Assembly: GCA_002633005.1 (NCBI GenBank)
Contig: NMRA01000491.1
Location: 1 to 64,000, forward strand
From: Phoronis australis
Lineage: Eukaryota; Animalia; Phoronida
Reading direction: 5' to 3'
Length of the DNA stretch: 64,000 bases
Shown: positions 1 through 25,800 of the stretch, piece after piece
Numbering within the stretch: the first letter of the stretch is position 1
How the letters are laid out: every line of letters starts with the position of its first letter
Translations under genes and position numbers: made by a program
The notes under the pieces: generated by a model
Databases searched by the model: none
What the model was told of the DNA's origin: nothing
The model's input: the letters and a program-made list of their open reading frames with translations, nothing else

Positions 1-508
1 TGTCTCTGGCTATATTATCAAACTTCCAGAAAAAGTCTTCCCAAGTGCCTAGCTTACCACTGAAAGTTAGGTTGCGCGGAGCACGTTGCAAGTAGTTAGT
101 TGAACCCCCCGCCGGTTTAGATGACATGTTAGTATGTGGAGATGAAGTTGTTTTTTCAAAAGCACCACCACTAGCCATGCTGGTCTTGGACGGGGTAAAT
201 TTCATCGCTAATTTTGGGAACGATACAGGAGCTGAAACAGTTTTGGATGGTGTTTCCTTACCATAACTGTCAACCAACTCTACAACTTTAGCTAAATCTT
301 CCGGCAGACCAGACGGGATGGAGAAGTCGATGTGTTTCTGCATCGTCTTGGTCGGCTTCCAACCAGAATGTATTTTAGTTACATTCTCCGGTGTAATCGC
401 TGACACTGCTCTGAAGTCGATTACTGCAGTAGCAACATCAGTGGTCATACCCGGAAGGTCTAATAATGTCGCAGCGTCACAACAATTAATCAGAATCTTG
501 GACGCCAT
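1..508 (-). CDS. Gag-like ORF of an LTR retrotransposon with an N-terminal helix-hairpin-helix (ComEA/HHH_3-like) domain; runs off the window edge
   Basis: Open frame from ATG at 508 to base 1 (absent from the ORF track because no stop is in the window). It begins MASKILINCCDAATLLDLPGMTTDVATAVIDFR, resembling the ININ.A....L..LPG.....A..II..R HhH pattern. A low-complexity linker follows, then PRNLTFSGKLGTWEDFFWKFDNIARD, resembling the F.G...W..F...F...A start of Ty3/Gypsy capsid domains. It lies downstream of an LTR and PBS. Confidence 0.75.
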   Translation of the reverse strand, partial: MASKILINCCDAATLLDLPGMTTDVATAVIDFRAVSAITPENVTKIHSGWKPTKTMQKHIDFSIPSGLPEDLAKVVELVDSYGKETPSKTVSAPVSFPKLAMKFTPSKTSMASGGAFEKTTSSPHTNMSSKPAGGSTNYLQRAPRNLTFSGKLGTWEDFFWKFDNIARD

Positions 509-1247
509 GATGATTGGTGCTGGAAGGCACTAACAACGCAGGAGAATTCCTGAAATATACTAAATTATACCATGAACTATCTGGAAAAGAAAAAAAACAA
601 TAATGAAACAAGAAACTGATAATATATATAAAGAAAAATGTATACTCCTACAATACACCGAAAACAAAACTGAAACCACGTGGTTTCAGCTACCACCACG
701 CCATGGGGCAGTACCGGGACGCACGGAAAATTTAGTAAACAAACTTTAAATTCCGCGCCACGGTGAAAAAAACAAGGAAAAGTAACGCACGCAGTAAACG
801 CCGACTACGCCAAATGTAGTGAATGTGGCTATTAAGGTTCTTTTCGGGCTACTNGGGTGTGGCACTAATTAAATGTAGGTCTGAAAAGACTAAACTTGGA
901 AACAATACCAAATAAAAATTATACTAATGGTAATTATATTTACTAGACAAAAATGAAAAATGAAGAATATAATAACAAATAAACGAAACAGCTGAACACC
1001 CGTGTTCAGTGACCTACCCGCTACCACACGGGTGGTACCGAGCGACAAGGAAAAACAAGTCCACGAAAATTATTTTGAACTACGCGCCACTCGGTGTAAA
1101 GGTAGAAACTGCACGTAGCAACTACGCCAAATGTTGAGAATGTGGCTATTAAGGTTCTTTTCGGGCTACTCACCCTCGTTCATTCCTTGACTTAAGCACG
1201 CTGTCAGAAATACGTCCTCTTGCCATGGAGGACAACACACGAGAGCC

Positions 1248-1306
1248 ATGGAATGGAAATCCATTGGGATGTTCCCGCGCAGGTTCAAATCCTGCCGACT
1301 ACGCCA
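1248..1306 (+). other. Extended primer-binding site: 3' 59 nt of tRNA-Ser including CCA (not a functional tRNA gene)
   Basis: ATGGA-ATGGAAA-TCCAT-T-GGGA-TGT-TCCC-GC-GCAGG-TTCAAAT-CCTGC-CGACTAC-G-CCA matches the anticodon arm, long variable arm, T arm and 3' acceptor strand of eukaryotic tRNA-Ser(AGA). There is no D arm or 5' acceptor strand, and CCA is encoded. Confidence 0.9.
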
Positions 1307-1308
1307 AA

Positions 1309-1551
1309 TGTTGTGACTCGATACACAGGTTCTCGTGCAGCTTACCTTTACTCATATGAAAGCTTGAATACACGCTTGAGTTGAANCGACCATAACACTC
1401 ATACGAACAAGGACGGACGACATTGAAACTGGACAACGAATATCTACCTAGGTTCACGACACGGCCATTTTGTCGAATGTAGCGCCGTCTATTGTTGCTT
1501 AGAGTTCGGCGCCTGCTAAGCGGGCGAGCTTTTAACAATTCATTCATTACA
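1309..1551 (-). repeat. Putative 5' LTR (~243 bp)
   Basis: On the minus strand it begins TGTAATGA and ends GTCACAACA (TG...CA termini, imperfect terminal inverted repeat), 2 nt before the PBS. The inner end (1309) is well supported; the outer end is inferred because the second LTR is outside the window. Confidence 0.6.
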
Positions 1552-2066: not shown

Positions 2067-2305
2067 CAGAGGCGGATCTACAGGGGGTTTAACCCCCCCC
2101 CCCTCGGGACAGGATCAAAAATAAAAACTGGAAAAAAAATCGCCAGAAAAACGAAATTAGCTACTAAAAATCCCAAAAAATCTTACACGGGAGGAGGGAA
2201 ACCCCGCTCTCGCGACCTTCCTTCTCCTCGGCGCTACGCGCCTCGGATTCTCTCGAATCCTAAACCCCCCCCCCCTTAATTACTGAAATCGTAGATCTGC
2301 CACTG
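2067..2305. mobile_element. MITE (non-autonomous DNA transposon) with 5-bp TSD
   Basis: TIRs CAGAGGCGGATCTAC / GTAGATCTGCCACTG; exact flanking duplication TGACT at 2062-2066 and 2306-2310; internal poly-C runs. Confidence 0.8.
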
Positions 2306-6025: not shown

Positions 6026-9000
6026 TTAGAATTGGTGTTGATGCTTGTGTTCTATTTGACGTTGATTCGGAAATGAGCCATCGTTGTCAATCAGAACTTT
6101 TAGGTACACGGCCAATGACGCCACGCCCACTCCGCTTGAATGTGAAGAACACCCGTCTGTAACGATACCGCCAAAATATGTTAAACAACTGACAAAACGC
6201 GTTGGCTAATCATTGAGGCCAGAATACAGATAACAAGGAATCAAACAATCCTGTTACCGCACAGAGTCGACTGGATTTAGAAACAAGCGCCAACAAAATA
6301 CGGGAGTAATACCAGAGCACATTTAAAAATATCATTTCATTGAAACTCAATACCCCCAAGACCACGTTTGTAAATGAAGATAAGAGGCATGTGCGCATGT
6401 GTAAACATCTATTTTTGAGGAAGAAAGCCCATAATTATACGGTGAGCATCGCCGTTTACATTTATCATCTATTTACAAAATATGCATTGTCTTGGCTTTA
6501 CGAGTATAGAGGGGTGGGCCACGGATAGTGTTTCGTTAGACCCTAGTTAAAGACCACATAATATTGATTCTTGAGAACACGTAAACAACTAGAAATTATG
6601 GATGCTTATAGGCTTGTTCGATTAAATTAAATTTTCTCTCATTAGATGCTTAAAAGGATACTAAACCCAGTGTTTTTATTAGTGATTTCAACCAATCCTC
6701 GTTCTGCTACCTGATAGTGCACAATTGGCGTCCCACTTGAGTGACAAAAGCAGGATTCAACAAAAAAACTCACCTTTCTTTGTCACAGATGGATAATATG
6801 GTAATTGATGGATAGTCTTTCCCTATACTTGCTGTGTAACTGAACGTCATTTTTAATATCTGTTAATAGGCAAAAACCGGATTTGGTATCCTTTTAAGTA
6901 CTAGTGAATCGTCACTTGGTAATCATGCGTTACAAACCTTTCAATTGTCTTTCAAAGAGAAGTTTTCTGGCACCGAAAACGGGACTGAAAGAAAACCACA
7001 TAGTTATGTAGACCTTTTGGTACCAATACCAGAACGTGTAATCGAACCATACCAGTTTCCCTCCTAGGAAAGTATTCCGCGGCCCCTGGGTGTACATGAG
7101 CAGGTGAGGTGTACAGGACGTGACGCTCACTCAAATGGGTGTTTTATGACCAGATTCCTTATGAAAAGGACACCTTCCGAAAGAAATATCCACACGAAAT
7201 TGTTCACTTTGTGGGTTAAAAACTCAACAAAATTATTCATTTTTGCAATATTCTACACTAAGGAGCGCTACGCATTCTCTTTACGTTTGTTTCGTTTAAT
7301 AGACTGCAAGCCAAAGGGTCGTTTTATAAATTTTAATTCATTCTGTAAATTCCAATTCGGTATTAAGACTACCTAGCAGATATGTTTCATGGTCTTAGAC
7401 TAATGTCAAACGCTTCATTTCAGCAACAACAAAAAATAATAACGTCCTCGTGATATATATAGATTATTACATGGCGAAGTCATTATCCCCCGTTATCTAG
7501 AGCCCGAGTGGATTTTGGAGAATTATCGCCCGAGGGGCGTCAGCCCCGAGGGTGATAATTCTGCAAAATCCACGAGGGCTCTAGATAAGGGGGATAACGA
7601 CTGAGAACATGTAATAATCTATTTATACCACATACTAAACGAGAAACATTGCAATGAATCTATCTACCTTTCTCGACTCGCCTCGGCATTGTAACTACTT
7701 TCTATGTCAGAGGACCGGGGTCGGAGGTCGTGACCTTTTAAGAAAAGCCGAGCTATTTTTGTCAAATAATGCTTATACTCAAAACCAATTAGAAATTTAA
7801 ACAAAATAGAAATGAAGTGAATCTCTAAATTTAGGTTAAGCAACTACTATAGCTTAAAACACGTTTTTTACACGCTAAGCTTCGACCGGGAAATTATCGT
7901 CTGCTAAAGTAGGTTACCACTGGTAACTGAATATAATTCTCAAGTCAAAGATCCTGACGACACGATACCCGCATTCAAACTGGAGATCGGTGATTTACAA
8001 GTAAGAGGACATGAAAGAAAAATTTCACTGAAGATATCATTTTTATGGAAATTATGTGTCTTATTTTTCGTAGCGTATAAGTACAGTACGATGCGGTTTG
8101 TTGAACGTGCGATTATTGCGCGTGCTCATTTAAGTATTCTATTTTCACTCTTGATGACGTCAGTCGCTGCGTGGTGTAGTGGTTAAGTCGGCGACCTCCA
8201 AACTCTAGGGTCCCGGGTTCGACTCCGTCCTCGGTTTCCCGCCAAATCGTTATCTCACTAGTGAGATAACTTTATGGGTTATTACACGGTTTTATCTGCC
8301 ATTTGACGCTAATATTGTGGTATAATAATATTTTATACCACATTTTCAGCCTGAAGTGGTCAATACAACCGTTAAGTAACCCATGTAGTTATTCAACACG
8401 CATTGAATAACATTTTGGCGGTAAACCGTGGCTGGTTTCGAATCTGCTCCGCAAGAGTTTCGAGTCGTCGTCTTTACTACTGCACGCAACTAAGCAGCTG
8501 ATGTCATCAAACGTGAAAATAGAGTACTTAAATGAGCACGAGCAACAATCGCCTGTTCAACAAACGGCATTGTACCAACATTTATAGGCTATGAAAAACA
8601 AGACGCCCAATTTCAATAAAAACGACGTCTTTAATTCAGTAAAATCAGGAAGAGTGGTTATCTCTTCCTGGTAAAATTTATCTGTCATTTTCTCTCACTT
8701 GGAAATCATCGATCTCCAGTTTAAATGTGAGTAACGTGTCGTCGGAATCCTTTGACTTGAACATTATACTCAGTAACCACTGGTAACCTATTTTAGCAGA
8801 CGATATTTTCACGGTGGAAGCTTTGCATAAGATGTGTAGTTAGGTAGACTAGCTGCTTAAAAATTATGTTACAGATTCATTTTATTTCTGTTTTGTTTCA
8901 ATTTGTATTTGATTTTAAGTAAAAACATCATTGTAACAAGAAAAACTCGGCGTTTCTTAAAAGGTCACGACCTCCGACCCCAGGCCTCTGACATGGAAAG

Positions 9001-12000
9001 TAGTTGCAAAAGCCGAGGCGAGTCGAGAAACGTAGAGCGATTCATTGCAGTCGTTCAGTATGTGGTATAAATAGATTATTACATGTTCTCAGTCGCATCA
9101 AAAACTCGTATCAGGGGAAAAGATCGAAGAGTGTGTAACCAGCACGAACTTGGTTGCATCTCCAAATTTACATTGCGTGCTATACTGGAAGGAGGAGTGC
9201 CAGAGACTATCCCGGTGCCTACCCTCTGACGTCACCACAGAAACAGAAACAAAAACAGAAACTCAGTCGTTATTCCCCTTATCTAGACCCCCGTGGATTT
9301 TGTAGAATTATATAATATATAATTCTCCTAAATCCACTCGGGCTCTAGATTGGCGGGGGATAATGACTTCGCCTTGTAATAATCTATATATAAATTATTT
9401 TAATCGTATGCTAATGAAGTGTAAAATATTTGAACTTACGGTTCGTATCCAAAACATCCTCTTTCATCATCTTGTAATCCGAGAATTATTTCCATCCAGT
9501 CGGAGCGAACAAAATCGATGAAACCAATATCTCCACAAACGGTAACTACAACGAATGAAAGTGAAAATGGTTGCCAGACGGCGCTTCGAGTTGGTATCTT
9601 TGATCATGTGGTCAATATTATAGACTGCTCGTCAGTGGACATTTCAAATCAAGTAGGCTAAGTACAAAGTGATTCAGTAATCTATTATTACGAAGGCAAC
9701 GCATTTTGCGCCATCACAAGTTTGTTTGGAATATCCTTTTTTCAGTGGGAAGTGCACAGTACAGCCAAAATCCGACCGGTGCAACCAGATAGTGCACAGG
9801 CGGATATCTTGTCGATGCCGCGATGTCTGGGTTTAATTCCGTGGACGTAAGAACCTCGTAATGATGGGCTTCGCTTGTAATACAAGACGACGTCTCACAA
9901 TGTCTTGCCATTGAGCTTCCATTTTCGCGAGTTTTAACACACGCTTAGAGAGTGTTCTGTAGACCTAATTTCTTACAAGAAAAGATCTCAAAAAACTTTG
10001 CCGCACAACCATGTAGGGTTACCTTAACATGAGCGGCACAGCACTTAAAAAAGTGGAGGGGGAGGGAGGGTGGACTAAAGATGTGTTAGCAAGCTGTACG
10101 AGTATACGATAATACTACGACCTACGTGTTAAAGTTGAAACCGCCGCTATTGGTAGCTGAAGTACTGACCCCATGTTGTACCTGCTTGACTCTTGAAACT
10201 GAATGAGTCGTTAGTTAGATTGAATATTTACGATTGGGAGTGATTGGACCTGAGATCATTTGTAAGCAATGTAATCAATGTTTGTACACCCTTTAAATAT
10301 TTACTAAATGGGCTCAAATACAATACTTTTCTCATGTCAGTTCCGACTCGTTAGCAGACAATCAGAGTAATGAACTGTCGGAGTTCTGGTTTCGGAAATG
10401 TGGACATTCGAAGTAGTGAACTTTCGAAGGTAGCGAACCTTCGCAGTAACTTCGGAGCAGTGGACTTTCGGAGTAGTGAACCTTCGGAATAGTAACATGT
10501 AAGCTTGGAAATCTTTTCCATCAAGTTTGCTGTTCGCATGACTCTTGAGAGGCTGTGCGCCATTGGCACTGATTGACATGAGAAGACTTTCTTCATTGAC
10601 CAAAGTTTTTATTAGGTCTAGACCTACTTTCCCTAAAAATATGAACATGCTCGTCGGGGTTTTCTTAGTACAACAAAATACAGAAGTTCATGGGCGGTGC
10701 AGCACTGAAAAAAGTGAGGGATATAACCTCCCTGTGGTGCACCGCCAATAGACCACGGGTGGTGCAGCACTGAAAAAGGGGGGACTATAGCTCCCCAACC
10801 CCTTTTGGTGCTCCCCCCATGTACTTAAATGTCTCATTTTTGAGCAACGACGGAGGGCTTCCTATAGAGAACTTAATTATCATCGGCGTGTACTGAATTT
10901 AAAAGAATGGAAACACTCACAGTACACGCATGCAGTCATCCACCAATCCAAAACCACAGTAGAAATTTGAAAATGTCTGCACTTTTCCGTACTCCGCCGC
11001 TATCAAAATAGCAGATAAACCTAATTTCTGCTATTTTTTTCTTGGTCCATTTTAAAACGTTCACACGGCACTACTTTTTGGGAGCTCTCTCGCTGCCAGC
11101 CTATGTTGGTATACTATTAGACATTTACTTCTAGACTAGCGTGTTACACCATTTGGTAACCACGACGCGAGTTCAATGCCGATGAATTAATAAAGCCTAC
11201 TCTAATCGTCTGCACGATCCTATCACCAAGCACCATCCGGGCGAAGTTGACCACGTACGGCACGATTAAAAGGCTGCGTGAACTAAATTATTACTAACTT
11301 GGTTATCATTGTATAGTTAGTAGAACCAGTAGCTGCAACAATTTTGTTGTTGTTGTCCATCTATATCCCATCTTTAACGGATAGACCGGGGCAGGACCTT
11401 TTCCGCGGAGGGGGTTCGATCGAACCCCCCGAACCCCGCCCCCCTGGCTAAAGGCCTGCTATCTATTGTAGGAATATAAGCAAGCTTGAATAACATTGAA
11501 ATTTCTCAAGATGTAAGAATCGGGAAGCAAATTTTAATAAGTTTTGATAGTTATTGCGGGAGGAATTTCGATCCTAAAACTGATTCCGAGAAGTTTCCAT
11601 TACTAAAACAAAGCCTACGTTCCCCAGTACCCAAGCCGATGCTGCAATACACAGCTGAGATGATACAATACTGGAGAAAGCAGACGAGACACCCACCCTA
11701 GCTAGCCGCTAACACATCTTACTACGGGAGAACCACCTCGCGTCGCTTGCTCACTAGATCACTTACCTTGTTCCAGAAATATATCACGATAGCCAACGTT
11801 CACGTGACGGTGACGCGTCAGTGCTCTCGCTTCTGAGTAAATATGGTCACAAATTTGCTGTTCTATATTCGGAATGGACCGGCCGGAACTAAGAAACTTG
11901 GAGATATGTTTTTCACACCCCATCTACAAATAAGGAAATACAATGAACTGGCGGAGGCTGTTGGGGAGGGGGTGAATACAGTGACTGATTTGTTTAACGC

Positions 12001-22829: not shown

Positions 22830-25800
22830 ATGGATGGAGCTAAGAATGATCGCATGGTTGGATTTCTCACCGTTTTTACCATTTTGTCCCATGGTGTCGC
22901 AGGTAAATGTTTTAAAGTGAATGTTAAATACGTGGAGGTCTGTACTTCAATAAGACAACGTAAGCCTACATAGACAGACAAATATCTCGTATTACACTAA
23001 AACGACAAAATCGACACGTAGGGTTTAAGCCGCTTTGTCAGCTTACATGATCGAGTTTCTTTGGTAATTTAAGTAATGCGGTATGTGGCGCTCTGTACCT
23101 TCAAGACGGGCTTTTTGCGAGACTCAAAAACTAGAATAGGTTGTGAAAATCTAAAATATAGCTATGAGCTTGAGTGTTTTGCTGAGAAGGAGAAACGTCG
23201 GGGGGTGATAACTTAAAAAATTTCATATTTTTTGTCTTGTAAGACTTGTTATTTAATTGGGCTTTAAATTCGGAAAGATTACCCGAAAAATCTGTTATTT
23301 TGACGTCATAAGCAAACAAAGTTGGTCTATTGTGTTATACTTACCAGGGCCATTACTGATCGAGTGTATAAGAAAGTTCTCCGGTTAAAAAGTCAGTGGA
23401 ACTCACATTAAATTACACTGACTGTCAAATTCTTGATCAACTTTTTCCTTTTAAATTACACGTACCGTAAAATCTGGCGAAAACGCCCCTGGGTTTATCT
23501 GAAAAATGGCCGTATCTTCTTGAAAACGACTGCAACGTTCCCGCCATTTCGAGCAGAAGGCCAACCGTCATTTTGTTCCTGTTTTCAACCTTCTGTAGTG
23601 ACTAAATACGTAGCCCTACGTTATCAACTTGAAAATTAATGACACCTTTCGCTGTGAAAGAAGTGAATAAGAAATCATAGAACGGCTTGTTGTAGAGTGC
23701 GAAATAGCGAACACGGTCTCGTGAAATAACTTGGAATACAGGTAAGACCATGTTCGGGTAGTATGTCGGCGGACTAATATGGAGATTTTGTGGTAATCCA
23801 TTCAGTGGTGGCGAACAGTTAGGAAATGTAAGACCTTATCGACAAGACTGTACAATTACTTGCAAAGGTCTACAAAACTATAGAATACAACTCAGCAAAG
23901 TATGTTTTATACTAATCTGTCATTAGTTAGATTCACATGATAGCATTTTAGTAAAATTTTGTAAAAGGAAAGGTACATTCGCGACAAAACAACAGGACCA
24001 ATGACACGAGCAAATTTCGTGTGACACAATTTCCTAAATTATCGTTTCGTTTTCGGAACTGGAATTATTTTCATAAAAATCATACAAGTCTTATTTTGAT
24101 AGCCCCTTGTGCAAAAGTAGACCATTTTATAAACAATTTGCTATGGGGGAACTGTGCATAAAGCACAGCTCCACAAAATTTCAGCTGAATCCGACCAGCC
24201 ATTTTTGAGATTATGATGTTCGAAGTTGGTCAAAATTAGACATTTTCTAGAGTCCCTCATATATAACCACAAGTCTCTGAGGAAAAGTTCAACAGAAACA
24301 ATGTGTGCATTCACGTTGTGTAGATGATGTATACGATATATTTGCGGCCATAGACGCAACAAATTGGCGGCAAGTGAGATAGAACGGCTCCAAGCTAGAC
24401 CCCGCACTATGAAGTTGTGATCCCGGGGCGGATTTTGCAGACTTGCGTGGTCTCTTGCAAGCGCGCTCTACAGAACGCAGCCAGACCGCGACGCAGTTAC
24501 ACCGTATTTCATTTTCATTTTAAACTCCAGGACAAGCAATCGTCAAAGCAAAGAATCTCAACTTCATATAATGAATCAAAATGTACTGATAAATTTACTA
24601 AACAAATAAATCCAAACGTGACTAGCTGTTCTACTTACTCAATCGTTTTCTTTTCAGCCACAAACATTTGCACTGGCAGTGTGAGGGAGACACCAGCTCC
24701 ACATCATGACGTCATCACAAGTCCCTCGTACCCTGACACGTATCCACGAGGTGCCCCATGTTCGATAAAATTGAGTTTTCCCCACGGCTTTTTTATTGTT
24801 TTAAATGTCACAGACTACCGATTAACATCAAAATATCTGGGACTTCGTAAAGATAAACTCCTCATCAAATATGGTGTCTATAAGACCATCAATCCGTCTG
24901 CTGGAACAATGTCTGTGTTGCCTAGTAACGAAGTGACTATGAAATTCATACGCAACCTTGGCGGCCATCAATCAAGCAGAGGTTTCAGTCTTGCCTACAC
25001 AGGTAAGTGAAGGTACACGTAAGAAATAGCACGACCAAAAGACGCCCTACGGGACGATCTGAACACTAGGACGTCATTTCGTAATGAGCGGTGCTGTCAA
25101 TAATGGATGGCCTTATAAACAAACAAAAGAAGTGTATTGAAATTCTCTCATTTTAGTCTTCATTAAAGCTGGCCCACCTAAAGACTGCACAAAATATTGT
25201 TTTAAAATATTTTTACATTATTAAAACTAAACGTCGTTTCCCTATAGCTGGTCCAACCCAGCCGCTAGAACATACTTCTCTCGTTAAGTGGTGACAAAAC
25301 CATCTGTAGTAAGACGAATTTCTTATGACATATTAATAACACATGACCTGTTTCATGATAAGTGACTTAAAGATGTATTTGCATGCTCCTAATTATGGTA
25401 ATGTATAGCATGAACTAAACGACAAATTGAATATCTACGCTAAACAAAGTGCAGTTGTATTTATTGACAACTTGTAAATGTGAAAACAAAAAAATCTGCA
25501 AATAGGCGACCTTGGCAGTAATGACGTACTTTGGGGGCTCACATAAACCGCATCATGCAGTGTTATTCCCAACCAACACGTCACAATACTTACTGGAAAC
25601 GGTTGAGTGCTTTAAGGCGGATTGTTTTAGACATAAACTCGTTCTTGAAAACATTTGGCAATTTTCAACCTACCTCATATTCACACCGTCGCTAAATCTT
25701 GTGTTTCTGACTAATTTGACCAAGCAATCTCAGAGATAAGGAATTAGCGTGCAAGTTCCACTTTAAGACTTAAGTGAATAATTTTTACTTACGCTCCCAC

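What the first reader, a model, noticed from the sequence alone, without database searches (positions are those of the whole stretch)
1245..1308. Primer-binding site is a 59-nt reverse-transcribed copy of mature tRNA-Ser carrying modification footprints
Seen: next to the LTR end lies the whole 3' part of tRNA-Ser (anticodon arm to CCA) rather than the usual ~18-nt PBS. Against the canonical eukaryotic tRNA-Ser(AGA) as I recall it, the differences are G26>C (1247), C32>A (1253), A34>G (1255, giving a GGA anticodon), variable-loop C>G (1271), a compensatory pair in the variable stem and G57>A. Similarity ends about 2 nt 5' of position 26. Established: tRNA-Ser carries m2,2G26, m3C32, inosine-34 and often m3C in the variable loop; RT reads inosine as G and misreads or stalls at m3C and m2,2G; eukaryotes generally lack Ser(GGA) genes and do not encode CCA; plus-strand strong-stop synthesis normally halts at m1A58. 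Inference: this element's RT read through m1A58 and copied the primer tRNA to about position 24-26, fixing a DNA record of tRNA modifications.
Basis: partly seen in the sequence, partly recalled or inferred. Interest (0 to 1): 0.85.

Follow-up and report, generated by a model that had tools for sequence, protein, structure and literature searches.

The report
Retrotransposon fossil of modified primer tRNA
Next to the end of a jumping gene's terminal repeat lies a 59-62-base DNA copy of a mature serine tRNA whose odd letters fall mostly on sites known to be chemically modified, most likely because the element's reverse transcriptase overran its own tRNA primer and the normally dead-end product got fixed in an animal genome.

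Summary
Observation confirmed; interpretation largely supported but reframed. Window 1245/1248-1306 is tRNA-Ser from position 24/27 to an encoded CCA, 2 nt from an LTR end. Four of seven differences from animal tRNA-Ser genes hit positions 26, 32, 34 (A>G) and e2/47d, known RT-misread sites (P about 3e-4), while the neighbouring LTR DNA equals other copies. The other three (57 and a variable-stem pair) are probably the species' own isodecoder. It is not the family's primer-binding site: most copies and all RNA reads seen carry a 9-13-nt PBS, and the tRNA copy runs into the inside of a second LTR variant, not into the leader. Public contigs of the same species show further tRNA extensions on the same LTR end; one near-full-length copy has different letters at modified sites (T26, G58), but at depth 3.4 in a run of uncertain type. 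The window's own 5' junction was seen in no run, and the piece lies in a 531-nt contig between two single-N scaffold joins. Best reading: an occasional plus-strand read-through product, joined to a related LTR and fixed. Read-through is known biochemically; a genome-fixed copy with modification misreads was not found in 10 literature searches.

The parts
1245..1306 (+). Copy of tRNA-Ser positions 24/27 to CCA76 (tRNA sense on +, antisense in the element); 1245 is shared with the LTR piece beyond it
1247..1247 (+). Position 26 (m2,2G site): C instead of G; misread or untemplated junction letter; T in the second copy
   Evidence: modification from PMC11417395 and PMC8062790 passages
1253..1255 (+). 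Positions 32 (m3C site, C>A) and 34 (inosine site, A>G)
1271..1271 (+). Variable-loop position e2/47d (m3C site in zebrafish Ser tRNAs, not seen in human Ser-AGA): C>G
1287..1288 (+). A57 (shared with other copies in the species, probably native) and A58 (unchanged here, G in the second copy)
1307..1308 (-). 2-nt spacer between LTR end and tRNA 3' end, the same at all three primer sites in the window
1309..1385 (-). 3' part of LTR variant A, ending in CA
1386..1386 (.). Single N, probable scaffold join; public contigs leave the window at 1385
1387..1461 (-). 5' part of an LTR (starts TG), found in LTR variant B; preceded by a polypurine tract in other copies
   Evidence: joint 1245 to 1387 with 58 letters between; loose ends behind 1462
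1132..1245 (-). 3' part (114 nt) of LTR variant B, entered directly from the tRNA copy
1121..1129 (-). Ordinary short PBS (9 nt perfect) of the leader that normally follows LTR A
855..1120 (-). Leader 1; runs into a gag start in other copies
854..854 (.). Single N, probable scaffold join
800..853 (-). Last 39 nt of an LTR B, spacer and 13-nt PBS, followed by leader 2 (a diverged homolog of leader 1)
   Evidence: joint 825 to 1143
2..508 (-). Start of a gag-position ORF (169 aa, runs off the window); no significant relative found

Best explanation
The 59-62 bases are a DNA copy of mature tRNA-Ser ending in CCA, most likely made when this LTR retrotransposon's reverse transcriptase, during plus-strand synthesis, ran past the usual stop at position 58 of its still-attached primer and misread modified bases until it stalled at position 26. 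Shown: tRNA identity, CCA, the 2-nt spacing from the LTR end shared with ordinary copies, differences concentrated on RT-active positions, undecayed neighbouring LTR DNA, and other tRNA extensions on the same LTR end in the species. Inferred: G34 is inosine read as G (so the primer was Ser-AGA); A32 and G at e2 are misreads of m3C; the stop is due to m2,2G26. Such a product cannot anneal to the 9-13-nt PBS copy and should be a dead end; here it was probably rescued by a jump or end-joining (1-2 nt of microhomology) onto the inside of a related LTR (variant B), giving LTR A - tRNA copy - LTR B 3' part - short PBS - leader, which was then integrated. It is an occasional by-product, not the family's priming mode.
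For: Register, differences and P = 3.0e-4. Modified sites 26, 32, 34, e2 and 58 as RT-misread positions: PMC11417395, PMC8062790 passages. No decay beside it: 0 other letters over 1143-1203, 1174-1245 and 1387-1462 against run X1 contigs, and over 1274-1317, 1288-1327 and 1298-1335 against X2 contigs. Second copy in X1: LTR A end + CCA + tRNA back to about position 4, with T26 and G58; both RT-active sites among the 44 readable positions are changed (P = 0.011 counting all 5 differences). Two more extensions past 58 in X2 (depths 26 and 17). Short-PBS form is the rule: joints 1117 to 1294 and 1120 to 1298, contig depth 264 against 45, and 13 of 13 RNA reads of X6 at this LTR end. Read-through products are known and held to be dead ends in HIV-1 (PMC13191261 section 10, PMC8599865 passages); in Ty1/Ty3 the tRNA-copying plus strand is displaced and accumulates (PMC5371799 passages).
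Against: The window's own junction (1246-1247) is covered by no contig of X1 or X2 and by no RNA read of X6 or X8, so its four letters rest on the assembly alone; the feature sits in a 531-nt piece between two single Ns. The X1 copy has depth 3.4, its run type is only guessed, 3 of its 4 differences in 1248-1328 were not displayed, and it could be a library copy of the primer-cDNA intermediate rather than an insertion. The native genes of this species were not read; that 57 and the stem pair are native is deduced from mismatch counts (1 over 1257-1303, where the canonical gene gives 4). m3C at e2 was not detected in human Ser-AGA. A58 is unchanged in the window copy. The route of joining to LTR B is not shown.
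Confidence: 0.75

Rival explanations
1. The element's cDNA end recombined by PBS homology with a genomic tRNA-Ser gene or pseudogene (integrase-independent insertion), so the long match is host DNA and the odd letters are ordinary mutations.
For: Tf1 and HIV-1 cDNA insert at sites homologous to their primers (PMC11042837 passages). The X2 extension at 1274-1317 has no difference from the window and joins a graph node shared with gene-type copies, so for that allele this route is open.
Against: Predicts G26, C32, A/T/C34 and an intact tRNA 5' half; the window has C26, A32, G34 and ends at 24-27, with undecayed LTR DNA on both sides. None of the in-register genes found has these letters.
Confidence: 0.07
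2. A mature tRNA was reverse-transcribed by another route (LINE machinery or break repair) and only happens to lie at, or later recombined with, the LTR end.
For: It would explain CCA and modification misreads equally well; tRNA retrocopies exist (PMC5322556, listing and passages).
Against: CCA abuts the LTR with the same 2-nt spacer as ordinary primer sites, it is the element's own primer species, there is no poly(A) tail, and the arrangement recurs in X1 and X2.
Confidence: 0.06
3. The 531-nt piece is an assembly chimera: a real tRNA-tailed LTR A end was wrongly joined to LTR B, so the tRNA copy is real but its 5' neighbour, and possibly letter 26, are not.
For: Single-N joins at 854 and 1386; no run covers 1246-1247; 43 (X6) and 33 (X8) RNA reads at 1245 run on into LTR B, none into tRNA.
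Against: The junction lies inside the contig, with only 1-2 nt shared by the two sides, too little for an overlap or k-mer mis-join; none of the listed runs held more than 0.52 of the words, so the source individual was probably not among them.
Confidence: 0.08
4. Long read-through is the family's normal priming or strand-transfer mode, and an extended PBS is rewritten at each cycle.
For: At least three LTR-linked extensions in three samples (window, X1, X2).
Against: Short, imperfect 9-13-nt PBS in the deepest contigs and in all RNA reads seen at this LTR end; extensions differ in length and 5' neighbour.
Confidence: 0.04

Closest known systems
Over-extended plus-strand strong-stop products of HIV-1 (stops at 55, 54, 37/38, or full copy of unmodified tRNA-Lys3; PMC13191261 section 10 read, PMC8599865 passages)
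   Same: RT copies the attached primer tRNA beyond m1A58 and stops at a later modified base; product starts at the U5 end.
   Different: Known from in vitro reactions and TRMT6-mutant cells and described as unable to complete integration when copied beyond 54; here it is in a genome assembly, reaches position 26, and keeps misreads at several modified sites.
Dead-end plus-strand strong-stop DNA of Ty1/Ty3 (PMC5371799 passages)
   Same: The tRNA copy is not inherited as PBS; the family keeps a short imperfect PBS; the tRNA-bearing strand is surplus.
   Different: Ty3 copies about 12 nt of primer; no long fixed copy is described in the passages read.
Integrase-independent capture of LTR cDNA with retained primer sequence (Tf1, HIV-1; PMC11042837 passages) and Ty1 cDNA fragments at breaks (PMC11372161 passages)
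   Same: cDNA ends bearing primer-derived letters are joined to related elements or to breaks.
   Different: Retained sequence is PBS-length; no long tRNA copy or modification misreads are mentioned in the passages read.
Retroviral DNAs with tRNA sequence at the LTR-LTR circle junction or behind the PBS (Colicelli and Goff 1986; Pulsinelli and Temin 1991; recalled, not read)
   Same: As recalled: rare products with extra primer-tRNA sequence next to U5.
   Different: Laboratory clones of exogenous viruses; whether they showed misreads could not be checked. They may narrow the novelty.
Tailless and other tRNA retropseudogenes made by LINE-1 (PMC5322556 passages)
   Same: Genomic DNA copies of tRNA.
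   Different: Those lack the 3' end and are not tied to an LTR; the text has 0 hits for 'modif' and 'CCA'.

Membership tests
LTR retrotransposon | LTR with TG...CA ends | tested here: met
   TG start at 1461, CA ends at 1309, 1132 and 815; LTR variants are split by an N in the window
LTR retrotransposon | PBS complementary to a tRNA 3' end 1-3 nt after the 5' LTR | tested here: met
   9- and 13-nt sites 2 nt after LTR ends; same form in public contigs and RNA reads
LTR retrotransposon | Polypurine tract before the 3' LTR | tested here: met
   Loose ends behind 1462 in X1, X2, X4 are a purine run on the element strand; seen in other copies, not in the window
LTR retrotransposon | gag and pol (RT, RNase H, integrase), second LTR, target-site duplication | tested here: inconclusive
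   Only 169 aa of an ORF at the gag position lie in the window; no significant relative; the rest is off the window and no genome is held
Ty3/gypsy, BEL/Pao or copia superfamily | RT phylogeny and domain order | not testable with these tools
   pol is outside the window
Plus-strand read-through copy of the primer tRNA | tRNA 3' end with CCA abutting U5 at the primer spacing and extending past position 58 | tested here: met
Plus-strand read-through copy of the primer tRNA | Differences from the gene concentrated at RT-active modified sites | tested here: met
   4 of 7 on 5 of 62 sites, P = 3.0e-4, against genes of other animals
Plus-strand read-through copy of the primer tRNA | Independent copies differ at the modified sites | tested here: inconclusive
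   One other copy readable: T26, G58; depth 3.4, run type uncertain
Plus-strand read-through copy of the primer tRNA | Native genes of the same species lack the odd letters and CCA | tested here: inconclusive
   Only mismatch counts of gene-type contigs were visible (4 over 1248-1303, no CCA)
Functional extended or bipartite PBS | Extension present in most copies and in element transcripts, followed by the leader | tested here: not met
   Short PBS dominates; extension runs into LTR B
tRNA gene | Complete cloverleaf with D arm and A box | tested here: not met
   ARAGORN 0 genes, Rfam no match in 800-1800, 8 of 23 identity for positions 1-23

The most novel reading that the evidence does not exclude
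This family's reverse transcriptase repeatedly reads deep through its fully modified tRNA-Ser primer in the germline, and the products are rescued by a jump onto a co-packaged related LTR. The genome then holds a set of independent single-molecule reads of tRNA modifications, and each event can plant a tRNA copy and a spare primer site inside a new, longer LTR.
Probability: 0.35. Interest if true: 0.8.

Novelty: new variant of a known kind. Interest (0 to 1): 0.62.

Why it matters
Copying past position 54-58 of the primer is described as a dead end. A fixed copy shows that such products can reach the germline, and that an endogenous RT can pass positions 58, e2, 34 and 32 in vivo. If such copies recur, genome assemblies become a source of tRNA-modification maps (positions and misread spectra) for animals without tRNA sequencing, and a readout of each element's RT. 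It also offers a route to tRNA pieces and spare primer sites inside LTRs, and warns that odd anticodons such as Ser-GGA in animal assemblies can be RT copies.

Tried and rejected
No whole genome is held, so the copy census and native-gene alignment could not be run. Pattern scans of viral contigs for an extended Ser PBS: 0 matches. The metagenome scan gave 60 loci with 61 matches, all gene-type, none LTR-linked. The gag-position ORF found no credible relative (the two hits are unrelated large proteins), so the superfamily is open. No RNA holder was listed; 0 RNA reads cover 1250-1289, but a filter removes human-like reads, so this is no evidence. Folding 1245-1306 gives z = -0.78, no special stability. 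Idea that 1245 is the transcription start of LTR B (jump onto a minus-strand strong-stop end): no pile-up of read ends and flat depth at 1245; neither supported nor excluded. Three tandem primer sites as a biological feature: doubtful, the third lies across an N join and LTR B joins leader 2 directly in X2 and X4. Literature searches without a report of a genome-fixed, modification-marked primer copy; the library lacks most older subscription papers, and no supplements were read. Passages of PMC7472051, PMC3832253, PMC11680205 and 10.1101/2025.02.02.635956 held nothing on the point.

Full report
What is there. The window is animal DNA (a CUB-domain exon at 24399-25010). On the minus strand an LTR-type element runs from about 1461 towards the window start, ending in a 169-aa ORF at the gag position that has no significant relative; its superfamily is therefore unknown. 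To avoid recalled sequence I fetched tRNA-Ser genes from public contigs: 60 loci, 61 matches, 57 of full length. They come from other animals and many are near-identical. In register, 1245-1303 is tRNA positions 24-73, followed by CCA, two As and the LTR end at 1309. Identity is 55 of 62 from position 24 and 8 of 23 before it.

Are the differences modification marks? The seven differences are at 26, 32, 34, e2/47d, 57 and a variable-stem pair. tRNA sequencing papers name 26 (m2,2G), 32 (m3C), 34 (inosine, read as G), e2 (m3C) and 58 (m1A) as sites of RT misreads (PMC11417395 and PMC8062790, passages). Four of seven differences on these five of 62 positions gives P = 3.0e-4, or 2.4e-3 without the junction site; with a generous eight sites 3.7e-3. 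The search pattern left positions 26, 32, 34, the variable loop and 57 free; no in-register gene had C26, A32 or G34 and none had G at e2. Age does not explain the differences: LTR DNA on both sides matches other copies with 0 differences over 61-76-nt pieces. Against this: e2 was not found modified in human Ser-AGA, and A58 is unchanged. The other three differences are probably native. A contig of the same species differs from the window at only 1 place over 1257-1303, where the canonical gene differs at 4, and contig boundaries at 1274 and 1303 imply that the 30 letters with A57 are shared with copies that do not go on into CCA. This is deduced from counts; the letters were not displayed.

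Is it the primer-binding site? No. Contigs of runs X1, X2 and X5 join this LTR end through a 9-13-nt PBS straight to the leader (joints 1117 to 1294 and 1120 to 1298). In X2 the listed short form has depth 264 against 45 for the extended forms; 6 records of that table were not shown, so the ratio is rough. All 13 RNA reads of X6 at this LTR end leave the window at 1294 or 1298, and none of the 5 of X8 reaches below 1290. What follows the tRNA copy is not leader but the last 114 nt of a second LTR variant, B: contigs join 1245 to 1387 through 58 other letters, and 43 and 33 RNA reads run on from 1245 into that LTR sequence. The two sides of the junction share 1-2 nt.

Other copies. Run X1 holds a 116-nt contig with the same LTR end, CCA and tRNA back to about position 4. 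Read by eye against the genes, it has T at 26 and, from the table, G at 1288, which is position 58; it shares A57. Both RT-active sites among its 44 readable positions are changed (P = 0.011 with all five differences counted, 0.058 if 20 and 20a are counted as sites). But depth is 3.4, three further differences were not displayed, and the run's type is a guess: if it is RNA-derived, the contig may be a library copy of the primer-cDNA intermediate. Run X2, which also covers the unique flank at depth 49, holds two extensions past 58: one identical to the window over 1274-1317 (depth 26) and one that turns at the T loop into an inverted piece of tRNA-Ser (depth 17); they merge at 1288 (depth 45). 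No laid contig or read covers 1246-1247, so the window's own junction is unconfirmed; no listed run held more than 0.52 of its words.

Assembly caveat. Single Ns lie at 854 and 1386. Elsewhere in the window a single N follows a G run (26607) or precedes a repeat of upstream sequence (33939), as at scaffold joins, and public contigs leave the window at 855 and 1385. The feature thus sits in a 531-nt contig whose place in this element may be wrong; the locus may really be a plain LTR B plus leader 2, a join seen in X2 and X4 (825 to 1143). The junctions that matter lie inside the contig.

How it most likely arose. Plus-strand synthesis copies U3-R-U5 and then the primer still attached to the minus strand, normally stopping at 58 (PMC13191261 section 10). 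Here RT went on (inferred), read inosine as G, misread two m3C sites and stalled at m2,2G26. Products copied beyond 54 are described as unable to complete strand transfer or integrate (PMC8599865 passages), and in Ty1/Ty3 the tRNA-bearing strand is displaced and accumulates (PMC5371799 passages), which fits a family that keeps a short imperfect PBS. Rescue by a template jump onto LTR B, or by end-joining into it, is inferred. For a jump: three listed LTR B contigs leave the window at 1141-1143, so LTR B followed by leader 1 looks recombinant (184 pieces not shown). For end-joining: three X8 RNA reads (agreement 0.78) join the LTR A end and a 13-nt primer copy to the start of the LTR at 1428-1457, and integrase-independent joining of primer-bearing cDNA ends to related elements is known (PMC11042837 passages). 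I cannot choose between them.

Novelty and verdict. Read-through chemistry and retained primer letters are known. Ten searches found no report of a genome-fixed primer copy carrying several modification misreads; older subscription papers on tRNA inserts in retroviral DNA, which I only recall, were out of reach and may narrow this. Two unchecked notes of this scan describe tRNA copies or old primer sites inside LTRs of other genomes; they are leads that could be later stages of the same process, not support. Verdict: real, a new variant of a known kind, interest 0.62; confidence 0.75 in the read-through origin, less in the route of rescue.

Noticed in passing
window 854, 1386, 26607, 33939: Single Ns behave like scaffold joins (after a G run; before a 94-nt repeat of upstream sequence), so the three tandem primer sites at 800-1306 may be partly an assembly placement.
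   Followed up: partly
run X2 contig laid at window 1284-1317: LTR end plus tRNA to the T loop, then an inverted piece of tRNA-Ser (anticodon stem and variable arm of another isodecoder); looks like a fold-back of a read-through strand stalled near position 35.
   Followed up: no
run X8 reads at window 1294 and 1428-1457: Three RNA reads join the LTR A end and a 13-nt primer copy to the start of the LTR less 3-4 nt, like a two-LTR circle or tandem junction with retained primer sequence.
   Followed up: no
window 855-1170 and 520-853: Two diverged homologous leaders (alignment score 88 against a shuffle maximum of 53), each with its own short PBS: two subfamilies.
   Followed up: partly
run X1 joint 913 to 1143: A family copy that lacks the PBS and most of leader 1, apparently deleted between short repeats.
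   Followed up: no
window 2067-2305: Short element with inverted ends and a 5-nt flanking duplication, seen by eye; MITE-like.
   Followed up: no
window 7454-9392: Large nested inverted repeat (arms 82-98% complementary), probably a foldback DNA transposon.
   Followed up: no
window 24399-25010 (+): Exon-like frame with a CUB domain (E 2e-6).
   Followed up: no
loci L001-L060: Many of the fetched tRNA-Ser genes alternate with tRNA-Met genes in arrays.
   Followed up: no
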